DNA of 64,000 nt from contig CDLV01000017.1 in the NCBI GenBank assembly GCA_001244265.2, forward strand, positions 248,001 to 312,000. The letters are read 5' to 3'. Source of the stretch: Microbotryum violaceum (taxonomy: Eukaryota). Below, in pieces: positions 16,867 through 22,558 of the stretch. Below the pieces are notes generated by a model. That model worked only from the letters and a program-made list of their open reading frames with translations, did not search any database and had not been told where the DNA came from. Position 1 is the first letter of the stretch. Each line of letters begins with the position of its first letter. The translations under genes were made by a program, and so were the position numbers.

Positions 16867-17089
16867 TGTAAGGCCCGTGCGCCTGGGCCTTAGGAAGAGG
16901 GGACGCGCGCCTGGGCACTCTTAGTCTCTCTCCAGCGACTGATACGAGTGTCCAGGTGAGCACAAGGTGGATCAGAAGGCATTGTCATACCAGCGACTGA
17001 TACGAGTGTCCAGTGTCAATTCTACATACTTTGGTCCTGTGATCCTTGTCGTCGTCGCTCAGGTGTACACTCCAACGGGGTGTATTACA
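16867..17089 (+). repeat. Gypsy LTR-a (lacks the first 39 nt of the 262-bp LTR)
   Basis: tgtaaggccc…tgtattaca; contains an internal 24-bp direct repeat ccagcgactgatacgagtgtccag. Confidence 0.93.
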
Positions 17090-17186
17090 CTTTTTTTTTC
17101 ACAAGAGGTCAAAGACGCACACTGCCACGTGCGCCAGCGACACACCCACGGAACGAACAAACGACAACGAACGGTAACAGACGAAC

Positions 17187-18464
17187 ATGGCGCGTGGCAA
17201 GAACTCCAAGAACTCCACCGCCCAACCAGCGCCACCATCGGCACCAGAGGAAAGGGAGGACAGCTCGGACGATGAACAGGAGGTTGCAACGATGCCAAGG
17301 GGCATGAAGCTCAGCGCGCCCAAGCTTGCGAACGGCACGAAACTCACTCTCTCCTCGATCCGCGCATTCCTCAACGACATGGACAACATGTTCTTCCAGT
17401 ACCAAGTGAAGAACATGCGACTAAAGATAATGTTCATCGCCAACCACATTGAACACGAGGCGCTCAAGGATTGGCTGGTGACGGCGACGGAGGAACGCAC
17501 GTGGGACGAGCTTAAGGTCGCCTTCATCCGCAAGGCACTACCCTTGGATTTCGCCTTCACGACAGAGCAGCGTATTCGCCACAGCCACCAAGGCAACCAC
17601 GACTACGCGACGTGGGCTTCGGGACTTCGGGCCTCACAGCTGCAGCTCGGCCAGACCGCCCTCAGCGACATCGAGTTCATCAAGATCCTACTGTTCAACA
17701 TGGACCCTCAATTGAGCGTTGTTCTACGACAGAACGACCTTCTGTTGGGTACTGGCCTACACCAAGATGATTTAGACTACGTGGCGGCTTCAAAGGCGGC
17801 GCTCCCCAAGCTCAAGACATTATCTTACGAGGTGTTCGAGCGATTGGCAAGATCCCAATGGAATGTGATCATAGCGGTTCGTCCTGTAGCAACTCCCGAA
17901 CGAAACCTCGACTACGAGCCCAAAGACCAGCTCTGGCCGACCTTTCGTGACCTCGGCGACCACTCGACGCAGGCCGACGAGATTCACGGACCCGATGAAG
18001 GATTATCTCTCGGAGAAGGAGGGATGCTTTAGCTGCAGACGCATCAACACGGATCACCGCGCGAGCGACTGTACAGCCAACTGGCAGCAGGCACCGGATG
18101 TCCCGGAGGGGTGGGCCGAATTCGAAAAGAAGACGGCGAAAGCGGCTAAGAACGACACCCTCCATCAAATTGCGGAAAACTCAGAAGACGACATCTCAAC
18201 GGACGAAGAAAACGAGTACGCCCCTCAGTTCATCTCCACCATTCCCATCACTCTGCACAACAACACGAAGTCAAAGACGTTGCAGGCACTTGCTGACTCT
18301 GGGGCCTCTTCCTCCTTTATCGCAGATAAGGTGGTTGAGAAACTGGGGTTAGTCATGCATCGTCTCCCTGTTCCTACATTGGTCAAAACTGCAATCAAAG
18401 GCCAAGCACGCGCGTTTCATGTTACCTCGTTTGTAAAGATTCCGATCACGCTCGAGAATGGCGC
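17187..18464 (+). pseudogene. Gypsy gag, zinc knuckle and N-terminal half of the aspartic protease (one frameshift near 17900)
   Basis: Gag-like [31 protein letters not shown] and [12 protein letters not shown]. Confidence 0.88.
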
Positions 18465-18792
18465 GTGCTTGGCCTTTGATTGCAGTTTTGACCAATGTAG
18501 GAACAGGGAGACGATGCATGACTAACCCCAGTTTCTCAACCACCTTATCTGCGATAAAGGAGGAAGAGGCCCCAGAGTCAGCAAGTGCCTGCAACGTCTT
18601 TGACTTCGTGTTGTTGTGCAGAGTGATGGGAATGGTGGAGATGAACTGAGGGGCGTACTCGTTTTCTTCGTCCGTTGAGATGTCGTCTTCTGAGTTTTCC
18701 GCAATTTGATGGAGGGTGTCGTTCTTAGCCGCTTTCGCCGTCTTCTTTTCGAATTCGGCCCACCCCTCCGGGACATCCGGTGCCTGCTGCAG
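18081..18792. repeat. Fold-back inverted repeat, ~333-bp arms with a 47-nt spacer
   Basis: 18461-18792 is the reverse complement of 18081-18413 (one G missing at the outer end); junction microhomology GCGC. Confidence 0.95.
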
Positions 18793-19054: not shown

Positions 19055-19069
19055 CCCTCCCCTCCTTGC

Positions 19070-22000
19070 CTTGTCCTCCCCCGCCTTCCCACTCTCCCAC
19101 TCTTCCAACGCTGCGGTGTCTTCCAGGTGTGAACATGGCTCCCATGTGTTGTCGCTGTCTGCCCACCCCTTCCATTTCACCAAGAACCTCTTCCTTGACC
19201 CCTTCCCCTTTTCGTCCACAATCCGTTCTACCTCCCACTCCTCGTTTCCTTGGACGATAATGGCCGCTGGTTCCGTTGCCTCTCGTCCTGGGAACACCAC
19301 CCCATTGTTCTTTACCCAGCGTCGGAGCTTGGAGGCGTGGAAGACGTTGTGCGACTTGTCCCCGCCTTGAGCTTCAGCTTGTAATTTGAGGTTTCGGGTC
19401 GTGCTGCTAGGACTTCGTAGGGGCCGTCAAACCGGGGAAAGAGTTTGGCTGACCGTGCTTCCCCATCTGCCTTGTACCGCAGTCGTCGATCCCGCGAGTC
19501 GACTAAGACCATGTCGCCCACTGCAAACCCGGGCTCCGGTTTCCTCGCCTTGTTGCTCTGGTTGGCCTGTCGGATCTTTGCAATTGCCAAATTGTCTCGG
19601 GCTTCCGCAACCGCTGCTTCACGTTGTTCCACGATGGATTTGACTGCCTGTGACGTGGTTGAGCCCTCCACTGGGGTGATCGGTGTCAGCTCCGGCGTGA
19701 ACCCAAGTACCACTTCAAATGGCGTTTTCCCCGTCGACCTGTTCATACTGGAGTTGATCACAAACTCCACCGTAGCCAAGTGCTTTGACCAGTCATTTTG
19801 CCGTCGGTTGACCATTGTTCGCAGGACTTGGATCACGGTCCGATTTGTTCGCTCGCTTCGGCCATCCGTTTGTGGGTGGAAAGACGTCGATGTTGCCAGT
19901 TTCGTTCCCAGCTGGCCCATGTACGCTCGCCAGAACTCGCTTGTGAAGAGCTTGTCGCGGTCGGAGACCAGCACTTGTGGCATGCCGAAGTGTCGATGCC
20001 ACCCCTCAAAGAACCGGTCCGCCGTGGTAGTCGCGTTGTCCGTCGTGCGGCAGGGGATGAGGCGAACGTAGCCTGAAAGGCGATCTGTTACCGTAAGCAG
20101 TGCGTCATTACCATTGCTAGGTACAAGTGGCCTGACAAAGTCTAGGCCAACTTCCCGCATTGGCCGGTCAGGCACATTCAAATTGTGGATCCGACCGGCA
20201 AAACCGGTGCCATGCATCTTCATTGTCTGACAAGCAGCACAGGACTCAACGTAATCTTTGCATGCATCCTTCATTCCCGACCAGATAAAGTTGCGGCGTA
20301 GGTGTTCATACGTCTTGTGTAGTCCAAAATGGCCTGCGGCATCATGCGCGTCATGTAGCGCGTCCTCCCGAAAGTTCCCCATCTTTGGCAGGAGGATCCG
20401 TCCTTCGAACCGTGCAATTCCATTGTCAACTGAGTAGCCTGGTGTTGAGTCAATGTTCTTGATAGCTTGTTGACATTGCGGGTCCTTGCGGTAATCGTCC
20501 CTGAGTTTGCAAAGGAAGGCAGGATCGAGAGTTGCCTCCGCCAGCACGTTGACATTGTCGCTCGCCTGGCGGCCGGCTGTGGGTTCCTCCGGGAAAGAGT
20601 AACGACTCAATGCATCAGCCACTGTGTTCTCTGGACCTCGTACATATACAATCTCGAAGTCGTAATCGGCCAGTTGTTTGGTCCATCGAGCTTGTCGTCG
20701 TGAAAGGCTTGGTTGCTTCATGAAGCCCGCCAAGGAGTGGTGGTCTGTGAGGATCTTGAATCGAACACCCAAAAGGTCCGCCCGCCAGTGATGAAGGGCG
20801 TCCACAATTGCAAGCAATTCCATCTCGTGGGCTGCATAGTTGCCTTCCGCTGGGTTGTACTGTCGTGACCAATAGCCTGCCGGCATGGCCGTCTGCCATT
20901 GCTTTCCTTGACTGAGTGCCGCCCCGATTCCCCGATTGCTCGCGTCCGTCATCAGCAATAATGGGTCGCCCTTGTCGGAATGGTCAATGGGATGTAGAGA
21001 AGGAAGGTTGCCCACCAAGGACTTGATTGCCTCAAACGCCTTGTCGTGCTCTCCCGTCCAGCCTTCGTCGACATGCACCCCTTTCCGTGTCAGCGGGACT
21101 AAAACCGCCGTCAAATCCGCAAGCTTGTCGATGAACTTCCGCAGATACTGCACCAGACCTAGAAATCCCCGCAATTGCTTCACCGTCCTTGGTCGTGGCC
21201 ACTGTTGGATCCGCTCCACCTTGTCAGGATCGACCTTGATGCCTTCCCGAGTGATCTGGTGGCCGAGGAAAAAGCACTCGGCAGCAAACAGTTCCGTCTT
21301 CTTTGGCGATACATACAGATCCGCCCGTCTCAGCGCCTCCAGGACTAGTCGCACCCGTCGTTCATGTTCCTCCAAGGTGTCGGCAAAGATTGTGATGTCA
21401 TCGAGGTACACGAAACACACGCTCCCGATAAGGTCTCCGAGTGCCTCGTTGACTCGGCGCTGATGCATTGCCGGGGCGTTGCAGAGTCCCATTGGCATTA
21501 CCGTCCACTTGTACAATCCCCACGGTGTCACAATCGCCGTCTTCCGGATGTCTTCCTCGGCCATCTTGGTTTGGAAGAAGGAGTTTGTCATGTCGATCTT
21601 CCCCAGAATTGCGTGTTTGAGCAGACCGACAGAATCTCGTCCGGAAGTGGTAGAGGTGTGCGATCTCGGACCGTCCCTTCGTTGAGTACTCGGTAGTCAC
21701 AGACCATGCGTGGTTGGATTGACGGGTCCTTATCCATACCTTTCTTTGGGATGACAAACGCCGGGGACGCGAACTCTGATGACGACTTTCGAAGGCGGCC
21801 ATTGGCGACGTGCTAATCAATCAAGCGCTTCCAGGCTTCCCGGTAACGGTGTGCCGCTCGATAACCCTTCAAGTTCGGTTTTGTTGCTCCGTCCTTCAGC
21901 TCGATTCGGTGTCGGACCGGTGATTCATACGTCGAAACCGGAGGAATATCCCCCGGGAACCGATCCGCGAACTTGACCCGTAGCTTTGCCTCCCGCCGTC

Positions 22001-22367
22001 GCAACTCCGTCAACTCCGTTTCCCTTTGCTGGACCCTGTCGATGTAGGCAATCACTGCACGCCAGTTGATCCGAGCTTTATCGCTTCGTTTGGCATTCCT
22101 CGCCGCGGCTCGCTGGGGTGGGGTCCGAAGACCGGCGCAAGAAGGTCGATCTTTACGTCAGGCATGGTCGAATGTGGCACCAGGATCTTGTGTGCCGCAA
22201 AGTCGATGGTAACCTTGTGTTTTACAAGGAAGTTGAACCCCAGTACCACTTCCAAGGGCTCCTGCAGTTTAGCCACCTTCAGAATCGTGTGTCCCACTTC
22301 CCATGCGCCATTCTCGAGCGTGATCGGAATCTTTACAAACGAGGTAACATGAAACACGCGTGCTTGG
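19070..22367 (-). pseudogene. Gypsy pol: protease C-half, RT, RNase H, integrase, chromodomain (several frameshifts)
   Basis: [40 protein letters not shown]…[23 protein letters not shown] and EWEVERIV…[17 protein letters not shown]. Confidence 0.95.
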
Positions 22368-22558
22368 TGTAAGGAGGGAGGGGAGTTTGGTTTAGGTGGT
22401 GGAGAGTGTAAGGCCCGTGCGCCTGGGCCTTAGGAAGAGGGGACACGCACCTGGGCACTCTTAGTCTCTCTCCAGCGACTGATACAAGTGTCCAGGTGAG
22501 CACAAGGTGGATCAGAAGGCATTGTCATACCAGCGACTGATACAAGTGTCCAGTGTCA
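22368..22558 (+). repeat. Gypsy LTR-c (intact 5' terminus, 3'-truncated by 71 nt)
   Basis: Starts TGTAAGGAGG directly after the inverted protease sequence and ends …GTGTCA; carries four CpG G>A changes relative to LTR-a and LTR-b. Confidence 0.92.

What the first reader, a model, noticed from the sequence alone, without database searches (positions are those of the whole stretch)
16867..22558. Chromovirus with autointegration-like 'inversion circle' topology fixed in the chromosome
Seen: the order is LTR(+) > gag-PR(+) > [inverted PR piece] > full LTR(-) < chromo-IN-RH-RT-PR(-) > LTR(+). Two junctions fall exactly at LTR termini and join the element's own interior. The LTR 5' TG (22368) abuts the protease at the site equivalent to 18402, and the LTR 3' CA (18793) abuts the site equivalent to 18081. 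Established: retroviral and Ty1 intasomes can integrate into their own cDNA, and opposite-strand attack gives LTR-A-rev(LTR)-rev(B) circles, normally dead-end products. Inference: this is such a product, with the two ends attacking sites ~320 bp apart, which was later inserted into the genome. Alternative: the 18792 junction is a gag deletion at CT microhomology in an inverted tandem copy.
Basis: partly seen in the sequence, partly recalled or inferred. Interest (0 to 1): 0.78.

Follow-up and report, generated by a model that had tools for sequence, protein, structure and literature searches.

The report
Rearranged chromovirus copy with inverted LTR
A dead fungal retrotransposon copy is scrambled so that its internal joins sit at the natural ends of its DNA copy; it probably records a failed replication product, but it is not the simple self-integration circle first proposed.

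Summary
The geometry is real. The order is LTR(+), gag-PR(+), inverted PR piece, full LTR(-), chromo-IN-RH-RT-PR(-), LTR(+). It is a Ty3/gypsy chromovirus whose closest relatives are in Microbotryum.

Four corrections matter.
- The outer LTRs are partial: LTR positions 40-262 on the left and 1-192 on the right. The unit is a permuted copy of period 5,540 bp plus 153 bp. It sits in a Copia RT gene with a 6-7 bp target duplication. Empty-site Copia copies occur in 4 of 4 runs.
- The join after the inverted LTR keeps the CT that normally follows a 5' LTR, and the interior piece there has the same orientation as that LTR. That is a deletion-type join, not an inversion-type join.
- A third join is a fold-back at a 4-nt microhomology.
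- The left 2.2 kb is clean while the right 3.5 kb carries TCG-to-TTG changes, so the structure is a mosaic.

A simple inversion circle is not supported. An origin from aberrant cDNA ends is likely. Contigs could neither confirm nor refute the window-specific joins.

The parts
16861..16866 (.). Left copy of the duplicated target CTTGAG. It is 7 nt (ACTTGAG) if the insert is read as TG..CA, and only 3 nt if GAG is given to the LTR.
   Evidence: Contigs of other Copia copies join 16860 to 22560 with 6 shared letters in 4 of 4 runs.
16867..17089 (+). LTR copy A, LTR positions 40-262. It lacks the first 39 nt and starts with TGTAAGG, the same 7 nt as LTR position 1.
   Evidence: 0 mismatches in 223 nt against the minus LTR. 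Sequence. Two contigs of run X16 leave the window after 17089, which supports CA 17088-17089 as the LTR 3' end (table 7).
17090..18464 (+). Interior, + orientation: the CT dinucleotide, a T run, the leader, gag, and the first part of the protease.
   Evidence: Pfam RVP_2 in 17890-18525. Family contigs differ by 3 letters in about 1,290 nt (records 2-4).
18414..18460 (+). Loop of the fold-back (47 nt). It is native protease sequence, also present in the minus copy at 22309-22355.
   Evidence: The perfect arms are 18084-18413 and 18461-18790, 0 mismatches in 330 nt.
18465..18790 (-). Inverted copy of interior 18084-18409. It shares GCGC (18461-18464) with the + arm.
   Evidence: Pfam RVP_2 on the minus strand, 18349-18939.
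18791..18792 (-). CT after the CA of the inverted LTR. The same dinucleotide follows the 5' LTR at 17090-17091.
18793..19054 (-). LTR copy B, full 262 nt, TG..CA.
   Evidence: with the purine tract at 19090-19055 just upstream on the minus strand..
19055..22367 (-). Interior, minus orientation: purine tract, chromodomain, integrase, RNase H, RT, and the rest of the protease back to the site equal to 18402. Several 1-nt gaps relative to family contigs, so the frame is broken.
   Evidence: Pfam. Family contigs differ by 28 letters in 2,822 nt (records 13, 14). Single letters are missing at 19077, 19359, 21600 and 22114 (table 4).
22368..22559 (+). LTR copy C, LTR positions 1-192. Its TG abuts the site equal to 18402, and the two letters before it (GG/CC) fit either side.
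   Evidence: 4 mismatches in 192 nt against B, all G>A at CpG, at LTR 78, 82, 119 and 177.
22560..22565 (.). Right copy of the duplicated target CTTGAG.
16209..26220 (-). Host Copia element. Its LTRs are 16209-16395 and 26031-26220, with its own 5-bp target duplication ACGAG. Its RT reading frame continues across the insert (..AFQLK | CLGPVSYFLG..).

Best explanation
This is a dead insertion that came from an aberrant extrachromosomal DNA copy (cDNA) of a chromovirus. It is not a normal integrase-made full-length insertion, and it is not a simple inversion circle.

The unit behaves like a circle of 5,540 bp carrying two LTRs in opposite orientation. It was copied for slightly more than one turn, running from LTR position 40 to LTR position 192.

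The two internal joins at LTR ends mark the natural 3' ends of the two strands of a finished but unprocessed linear cDNA. On the right that end is ..CA plus CT. On the left it is GG plus TG.. These ends were joined to interior ends at the sites equal to 18084 and 18402. Either DNA synthesis ran off one strand and resumed on the end of another, or the ends were ligated.

The third join is a fold-back: a growing + strand ending in GCGC re-annealed 47 nt upstream and copied back.

Two parental templates contributed. A clean one gave LTR A, gag-PR, the inverted PR piece and most of LTR B. One carrying TCG-to-TTG mutations gave the pol part and LTR C.

The product then entered a break in a Copia RT gene by end joining or a similar repair process, leaving a 6-7 bp duplication.

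Shown: the order, the joins, the target duplication and the uneven divergence. Inferred: the order of events, the enzymes involved, and the two-template origin.
For: - Joins at LTR ends: TG 22368 abuts the site equal to 18402, and CA 18793 plus CT abuts the site equal to 18084. Chance of both is about 1.5e-5.
- CT is the dinucleotide that follows the 5' LTR, and GG precedes the LTR after the purine tract. Both joins therefore fit unprocessed cDNA ends.
- The interior pieces on either side of LTR B overlap by only 8-12 nt (18402 to 18409-18413). The minus unit therefore reads as one opened LTR-containing ring.
- The fold-back has a 4-nt microhomology and a loop of native sequence.
- Period 5,540, unit length 5,693.
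- The ends in the chromosome are LTR 40 and LTR 192, with a 6-7 bp duplication. The Copia next to it has TG..CA ends and a 5-bp duplication.
- Mosaic: repeats inside the left block differ at 0 of 553 sites, against 5 of 255 for pairs involving the right block, p=0.003. Against family contigs, the left block differs at 3 of 1,290 sites and the right at 28 of 2,822, p=0.006.
- 18 of the 31 listed transitions sit at ancestral TCG. This is the known Microbotryum pattern (PMC3318451, passages).
- In yeast, Ty1 cDNA and its replication intermediates are captured at breaks by end joining, some with extra letters found only in cDNA (PMC11372161, passages).
Against: - No read or contig was shown to span any window-specific join. 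Table 8 was cut (840 rows hidden). At most sites of the minus interior, the only contigs laid carry the family letter, not the window's. The structure therefore rests on one assembly.
- The model needs several rare steps in a row.
- The clean left block inside mutated surroundings could equally mean a later, second DNA-level event.
- No purine tract precedes 18084 or 18402, which could have explained strand ends there.
- The CT join can also be read as a 992-nt deletion in a normal LTR-interior context.
- The CC/GG at 22366-22367 is ambiguous, so integrase joining at that join cannot be excluded.
Confidence: 0.4

Rival explanations
1. Integrase-made self-integration, in a modified form of the reader's idea. 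Both LTR 3' ends of one cDNA attack the same strand of its own interior, at about 18081-18084 and at 18402. Displacement synthesis with one fold-back switch then yields the order seen, and the product later enters the chromosome.
For: - On paper, this path gives exactly A, gag-PR, inverted PR piece, LTR(-), pol(-), LTR(+) with period 5,540 (inference).
- The TG at 22368 abuts the interior with no extra letters needed.
- Self-integration into the same or opposite strand, giving deletion and inversion circles, is documented for Ty1 and for the Arabidopsis element SISYPHUS (PMC7197481, passages).
Against: - The CA at 18793 is followed by CT. An integrase join at 18081 needs one extra lost G, and a join at 18084 needs the CT to be kept.
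- The two sites are 318-321 nt apart, not the few nt of a concerted reaction.
- One cDNA should have identical LTRs, yet C differs from B at 4 of 192 sites while A equals B at 223 of 223.
- The outer ends are not LTR termini.
Confidence: 0.2
2. An ordinary chromosomal history. One copy inserted into the protease gene of another copy in opposite orientation (a nested insertion, which by itself gives the TG/18402 join). Later deletions, LTR-LTR recombination, fold-back repair or gene conversion reshaped the pair.
For: - The region is rich in mobile elements and the unit sits inside a Copia.
- A nested insertion in opposite orientation gives exactly an LTR TG abutting inverted interior.
- The left 2.2 kb is clean and the right 3.5 kb plus the Copia flanks are mutated. 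This fits two events of different age.
- Short templated inverted duplications by fold-back at breaks are reported in yeast (PMC11724301, abstract in the listing).
Against: - The interior pieces flanking the supposed target overlap by 8-12 nt, not 5.
- The second join, 2 nt past an LTR end, would be a coincidence of about 0.004.
- The 6-7 bp duplication ties the left end of A and the right end of C to one insertion event, yet neither is an LTR terminus.
- Several independent precise events are needed.
Confidence: 0.25
3. Classical inversion circle exactly. Opposite-strand attack by the two LTR ends gives LTR, A, reversed LTR, reversed B, later inserted into the genome.
For: Two LTRs lie in opposite orientation with an inverted pol part between them, and the TG join is of the inversion type. 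This topology is described for such circles (PMC7197481, passages).
Against: - The piece next to the CA of the inverted LTR has the same orientation as that LTR.
- An extra fold-back join exists.
- There is no short inverted target duplication.
- CT is retained.
- The outer LTRs are partial.
Confidence: 0.03
4. Assembly artefact: a chimeric or fold-back read built into the contig.
For: - A 330-bp perfect palindrome is a typical artefact shape.
- No listed contig spans the window-specific joins.
- The runs hold only 0.57-0.69 of the sampled words.
Against: - The loop of the palindrome is native protease sequence, also present in the minus copy.
- The unit lies well inside a 64-kb window and is framed by a target duplication in an otherwise continuous Copia reading frame.
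- An artefact would not place joins at LTR ends.
- LTR C carries its own four changes.
Confidence: 0.07

Closest known systems
Autointegration ('suicide') products of LTR retroelements: deletion circles and inversion circles. Known for Ty1 (Garfinkel et al. 2006, seen only as cited in PMC7197481), for Arabidopsis SISYPHUS (PMC7197481), and for HIV-1 (PMC2644782, abstract in the search listing).
   Same: LTR ends are joined to the element's own interior. Two LTRs lie in opposite orientation. The unit is circle-like. One join is of the inversion type and one is of the deletion type.
   Different: - It mixes both join types and needs a third, fold-back join.
- CT is retained at the CA end.
- The target sites are about 320 nt apart.
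- It is found in a chromosome, as a permuted copy with partial outer LTRs, not as an extrachromosomal circle.
Capture of retrotransposon cDNA or replication intermediates at chromosomal double-strand breaks by end joining. Yeast Ty1: PMC11372161 passages. Teng et al. 1996 and Moore and Haber 1996 are recalled, not read here.
   Same: The insert does not end at LTR termini. There is a short irregular duplication or microhomology at the target. Letters typical of unprocessed cDNA ends are present.
   Different: Captured pieces in yeast are mostly short fragments. This unit is 5.7 kb with three internal rearrangement joins.
Nested LTR-retrotransposon insertions in repeat-rich fungal DNA.
   Same: An LTR end abuts the interior of another copy of the same family. 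The whole unit lies inside a Copia element.
   Different: There is no 5-bp duplication of the inner target, the second LTR end is not where nesting predicts, and the outer ends are not LTR termini.
Fold-back (inverted duplication) repair at DNA breaks (PMC11724301, abstract in the search listing only).
   Same: The inverted copy starts at a short microhomology a few tens of nt upstream of the turning point.
   Different: Here the inverted arm is 326-330 nt and continues into an LTR. The reported yeast events are mostly 5-34 bp.

Membership tests
Ty3/gypsy chromovirus (Metaviridae) | Pol order PR-RT-RNase H-IN with a C-terminal chromodomain | tested here: met
   Pfam hits RVP_2, RVT_1, RT_RNaseH, Integrase_H2C2, rve, SH3_Tf2-1 and Chromo, in that order on the minus strand, with the PR start on the + strand. 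Family contigs join 18464 to 22304, so canonical copies are collinear.
Ty3/gypsy chromovirus (Metaviridae) | LTRs with TG..CA ends and a purine tract before the 3' LTR | tested here: met
   The minus LTR 19054->18793 is 262 nt, TG..CA, with a purine run at 19090-19055. The 3' end is supported by contigs leaving at 17089 in one run. The 5' end was not checked against other copies.
Canonical integrase-made insertion | Full LTRs at both ends, flanked by a short target duplication of the family's length | tested here: not met
   The outer LTRs are 40-262 and 1-192. The duplication is 6-7 bp. The family's usual length is unknown here. The neighbouring Copia has 5 bp.
Autointegration inversion circle | Both LTR ends joined to the interior at processed TG/CA ends | tested here: inconclusive
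   The TG join is exact but has 2 ambiguous letters. The CA join carries CT, or else needs a lost G.
Autointegration inversion circle | The interior next to the CA of the inverted LTR is in the opposite orientation, and only two novel joins exist | tested here: not met
   18465-18790 has the same orientation as LTR B. A third join lies at 18464/5.
Autointegration inversion circle | A short inverted duplication of the internal target (concerted attack) | tested here: not met
   The sites are 318-321 nt apart. The overlap of the two interior pieces is 8-12 nt once the G at 18465 is assigned.
Autointegration deletion circle (3' LTR type) | LTR CA joined to downstream interior in the same orientation, forming a ring of LTR plus the 3' interior | tested here: inconclusive
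   The minus unit (18402..end, LTR, CT, 18084..18413) is a permuted ring of this kind. However, CT is retained, and a plain deletion or end joining gives the same sequence.
RIP-like TpCpG hypermutation (Microbotryum) | C-to-T transitions concentrated at TCG in repeats | tested here: met
   18 of the 31 listed transitions against family contigs are at ancestral TCG/CGA, and 23 of 31 are at CpG. The pattern is described in PMC3318451. Only the 40 best-supported of 120 differences were listed.

The most novel reading that the evidence does not exclude
All four LTR breakpoints may be functional landmarks of reverse transcription. LTR 1 (with GG) and LTR 262 (with CT) would be the natural strand ends. 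LTR 40 and LTR 192 would be the start and end of R, that is, the 5' and 3' ends of the RNA.

Read on the minus strand, the unit is then one cDNA strand that:
- started at the 3' end of a mutated RNA;
- ran off at the purine-tract/U3 cut;
- copied a minus-strand DNA that had made its first jump from a clean RNA onto the mutated one;
- ran off at the primer-site border;
- ended at the cap of the clean RNA.

This predicts that LTR B is a chimera, with U3 from the mutated parent and R-U5 from the clean one. That fits the data: B equals A over 40-262 and equals C over 1-39, and all four B/C differences lie in 40-192.

If so, the locus is a fixed fossil of a reverse-transcription intermediate made on two co-packaged RNAs.
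Probability: 0.12. Interest if true: 0.7.

Novelty: new variant of a known kind. Interest (0 to 1): 0.45.

Why it matters
Self-integration and other dead-end cDNA forms are known from virus-like particles and from extrachromosomal DNA. Chromosomal copies that preserve their joins are hardly documented. In the held library, the phrase 'inversion circle' occurs in 9 papers. By the titles and abstract starts in that listing, and the passages of PMC7197481 read, none appears to concern a chromosomally fixed LTR-element copy.

If the joins hold up in long reads, this locus shows three things. Such products can re-enter a genome without integrase-type ends. They can be mosaics of two parental copies. 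And strand ends of reverse transcription can be read from a genome sequence.

If the joins do not hold, it is just one more scrambled element in a repeat-rich region.

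Tried and rejected
- **Whole genome:** none is held, so other family copies, the family's target-duplication length and the true LTR 5' end could not be taken from the genome.
- **Reads:** one search found 20 of 24 listed runs holding 0.57-0.69 of the words. 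laid contigs of 4 runs. These confirm empty-site Copia copies and collinear family copies. No listed record spans 16866/7, 18464/5, 18790/1, 22367/8 or 22559/60, the tables were cut, and contigs drop rare variants. The window-specific joins are therefore neither confirmed nor refuted. Depth in bin 22316-22599 was too noisy to use.
- **Clean 5-bp inner target duplication (18402-18406):** rejected. Family contigs carry A at the site equal to 18465, so the G there belongs to the inverted arm and the overlap is 8-12 nt.
- **Join at a CT microhomology:** rejected. It would leave CTGG.
- **Tf1-like self-priming, as a way to locate the RNA start:** no complementarity of 8 nt or more between the LTR and the 91 nt after the 5' LTR.
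- **Internal purine tracts before 18084 or 18402:** none.
- **Sequencing-adapter origin of the palindrome loop:** rejected, because the loop is native sequence.
- **Garfinkel et al. 2006 (PMC1676259):** not held.
- **Supplements:** none were opened. Supplemental Fig. S1 of PMC7197481, which draws the circle types, was not seen.

Full report
**What is there**

- One search finds inverted pairs 16864-17091/18791-19018 (100%), 18863-19056/22366-22559 (98%), 18084-18418/18456-18790 and 18402-18467/22302-22367.
- It also finds a direct pair 16864-17019/22404-22559 (97%) with spacing 5,540.
- BLAST of 16867-22558 against the window finds no further copy.
- Pfam places a retroviral protease on the + strand (17890-18525) and again on the - strand (18349-18939). 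RT, RNase H, integrase and SH3 lie on the - strand (19312-21696), and a chromodomain at 18989-19426 on the - strand. Four of the 8 ORFs scanned had hits.
- The pol ORF is 87% identical to a Microbotryum silenes-dioicae polyprotein and 59% identical to M. intermedium proteins.

The element is therefore a Ty3/gypsy chromovirus of an anther-smut-like fungus.

**The reference LTR and the segments**

The minus copy (19054->18793) is the only full LTR. It is 262 nt, runs TG..CA, and follows a purine tract. In LTR coordinates, the left outer copy A is 40-262 (16867-17089) and the right outer copy C is 1-192 (22368-22559). The word TGTAAGG stands at LTR 1 and again at LTR 40, each after a G-rich purine stretch.

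I write interior positions by their + strand coordinates. The + strand of the window then reads:
- LTR 40-262
- interior 17090-18464
- reverse of interior 18409-18084
- reverse of CT
- reverse of LTR 262-1
- reverse of interior from its end back to 18402
- LTR 1-192

The period is 5,540 and the unit is 5,693 nt.

**The joins**

- *22367/8.* The LTR TG abuts the site equal to 18402. The two letters before it fit both the interior (CC) and the GG that precedes an LTR.
- *18790/1.* The LTR CA (18793) is followed by CT and then by the site equal to 18084. CT is the dinucleotide that follows the 5' LTR at 17090-1. The interior piece that follows LTR B has the same orientation as LTR B.
- *18464/5.* This is a fold-back with perfect arms 18084-18413 and 18461-18790 (0 mismatches in 330) and a 47-nt loop of native protease sequence. 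Family contigs switch from the + copy to the - copy with 51 shared letters. The canonical sequence therefore has A at 18465, the G seen there belongs to the inverted arm, and the microhomology is GCGC.
- *Overlap.* The two interior pieces on either side of LTR B overlap by 8-12 nt (18402 to 18409-18413).

**The chromosomal site**

The flanks are a Copia element on the - strand: gag, integrase and RVT_2. Its LTRs are 16209-16395 and 26031-26220, with its own TG..CA ends and a 5-bp duplication ACGAG.

Its RT frame reads ..AFQLK on the right of the insert and LK-CLGPVSYFLG.. on the left (and reading). CTTGAG stands at both borders. In all 4 runs laid, contigs at multi-copy depth join 16860 to 22560 with 6 shared letters. 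These are Copia copies with an empty site.

The duplication is 6 nt. It is 7 nt if the insert is read TG..CA, and 3 nt if GAG is given to the LTR. The insert's ends are not LTR termini.

**Family background**

Contigs at about ten times single-copy depth join 18464 to 22304 on opposite strands in 4 of 4 runs, so normal family copies are collinear. The window copy lacks single letters at 17894, 17902, 19077, 19359, 21600 and 22114 and has 9 extra letters at 17198 relative to those contigs. It is a dead copy.

**Uneven divergence**

- A equals B at 223 of 223 sites, and the palindrome arms are identical at 330 of 330 sites.
- C differs from B at 4 of 192 sites, all G>A at CpG.
- The pol end differs from the + copy at one true site in 63.
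- Together that is 0/553 against 5/255, p=0.003.
- Against family contigs, the + interior differs at 3 letters in about 1,290 nt and the - interior at 28 in 2,822 nt, p=0.006.
- Of the 31 listed transitions in the - interior, the + interior and the Copia flanks, 18 are at ancestral TCG. This is the RIP-like pattern reported for Microbotryum (PMC3318451, passages).

A clean 2.2-kb block (16867-19054) therefore lies inside mutated DNA.

Same-strand self-integration gives deletion circles and opposite-strand attack gives inversion circles, in which an inverted portion separates the two LTRs (PMC7197481, passages).

Here the TG join is of the inversion type, but the CA join is of the deletion type. 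A third, non-LTR fold-back join is needed, CT is retained, there is no short inverted target duplication, and the outer LTRs are partial. The simple inversion circle is not supported.

The core intuition does survive. Two joins within 2 nt of LTR ends have a chance of about 1.5e-5, which points to ends of extrachromosomal cDNA rather than to breaks in chromosomal copies.

**Most likely mechanism (inference)**

An aberrant cDNA product with a circle-like period of 5,540 bp formed first. Its joins arose where synthesis or ligation met the natural, unprocessed strand ends of linear cDNA (..CA+CT and GG+TG..), plus one fold-back at GCGC. The material came from a clean and a mutated parental template. 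It was then inserted into a break in the Copia RT gene by repair rather than by integrase.

Yeast work shows that Ty1 cDNA and its replication intermediates are captured at breaks by end joining, some with letters present only in cDNA (PMC11372161, passages).

A modified integrase model also reproduces the order on paper: both LTR ends attack the same strand about 320 nt apart, followed by displacement synthesis with a fold-back. It fits the CT and the unequal LTRs less well.

A two-step chromosomal history (a nested insertion followed by rearrangement) explains the age difference, but it needs several precise coincidences.

An assembly artefact is unlikely given the native loop, the target duplication and the private changes in LTR C. 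It is not excluded, because no listed contig spans the joins.

**Boldest reading**

LTR 40 and LTR 192 may be the borders of R. All four LTR breakpoints would then be natural template ends of reverse transcription. LTR B would be the expected chimera of an intermolecular first jump, with R-U5 from the clean RNA and U3 from the mutated one. The data fit this but do not test it. The four B/C differences all falling in 40-192 has a chance of about 0.4, by my own arithmetic.

**Limits**

- The evidence is one assembly.
- Only contigs, not reads, were available.
- The tables were truncated.
- No family copies could be fetched.
- Garfinkel et al. 2006 was not available.
- Teng et al. 1996 and Moore and Haber 1996 are recalled only.

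Noticed in passing
window 16209-26220 (minus strand): A Copia element hosts the insert. Its LTRs are 187-190 bp and 96.8% alike, with TG..CA ends and a 5-bp target duplication ACGAG. Only about 470 nt lie between the RT motif region and the 3' LTR, so it probably has an internal deletion. It carries TCG-type transitions relative to multi-copy contigs.
   Followed up: partly
window 14556-15581 (+): An ORF with NAD_binding_7, Sirohm_synth_M and Sirohm_synth_C domains (sirohaem synthase-like). It lies 0.6 kb from the Copia LTR, in sequence that is single-copy in the runs laid.
   Followed up: no
window 12570-13442, 26622-27402, 31023-32615: Further repeated segments, 73-90% alike and partly inverted. 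They indicate other mobile-element remnants around the locus, so the region is repeat-rich.
   Followed up: no
window 16932-16955 and 16990-17013 (also in the other two LTR copies): A 24-nt direct repeat inside the LTR. Contigs of other family copies skip 63-104 nt here, so LTR length varies within the family.
   Followed up: no
window 8261-8612 and 10202-10586; 50960-51097: An inverted pair 87-88% alike with internal short tandem copies, and a separate 59-nt tandem pair 98% alike. Not examined.
   Followed up: no
window 19016-19054 (minus strand), LTR positions 1-39: The first 39 nt of the LTR look like a second copy of the 'purine tract plus TGTAAGG' module that precedes the LTR. Position 40 could therefore be an alternative plus-strand start or an alternative LTR end.
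   Followed up: partly
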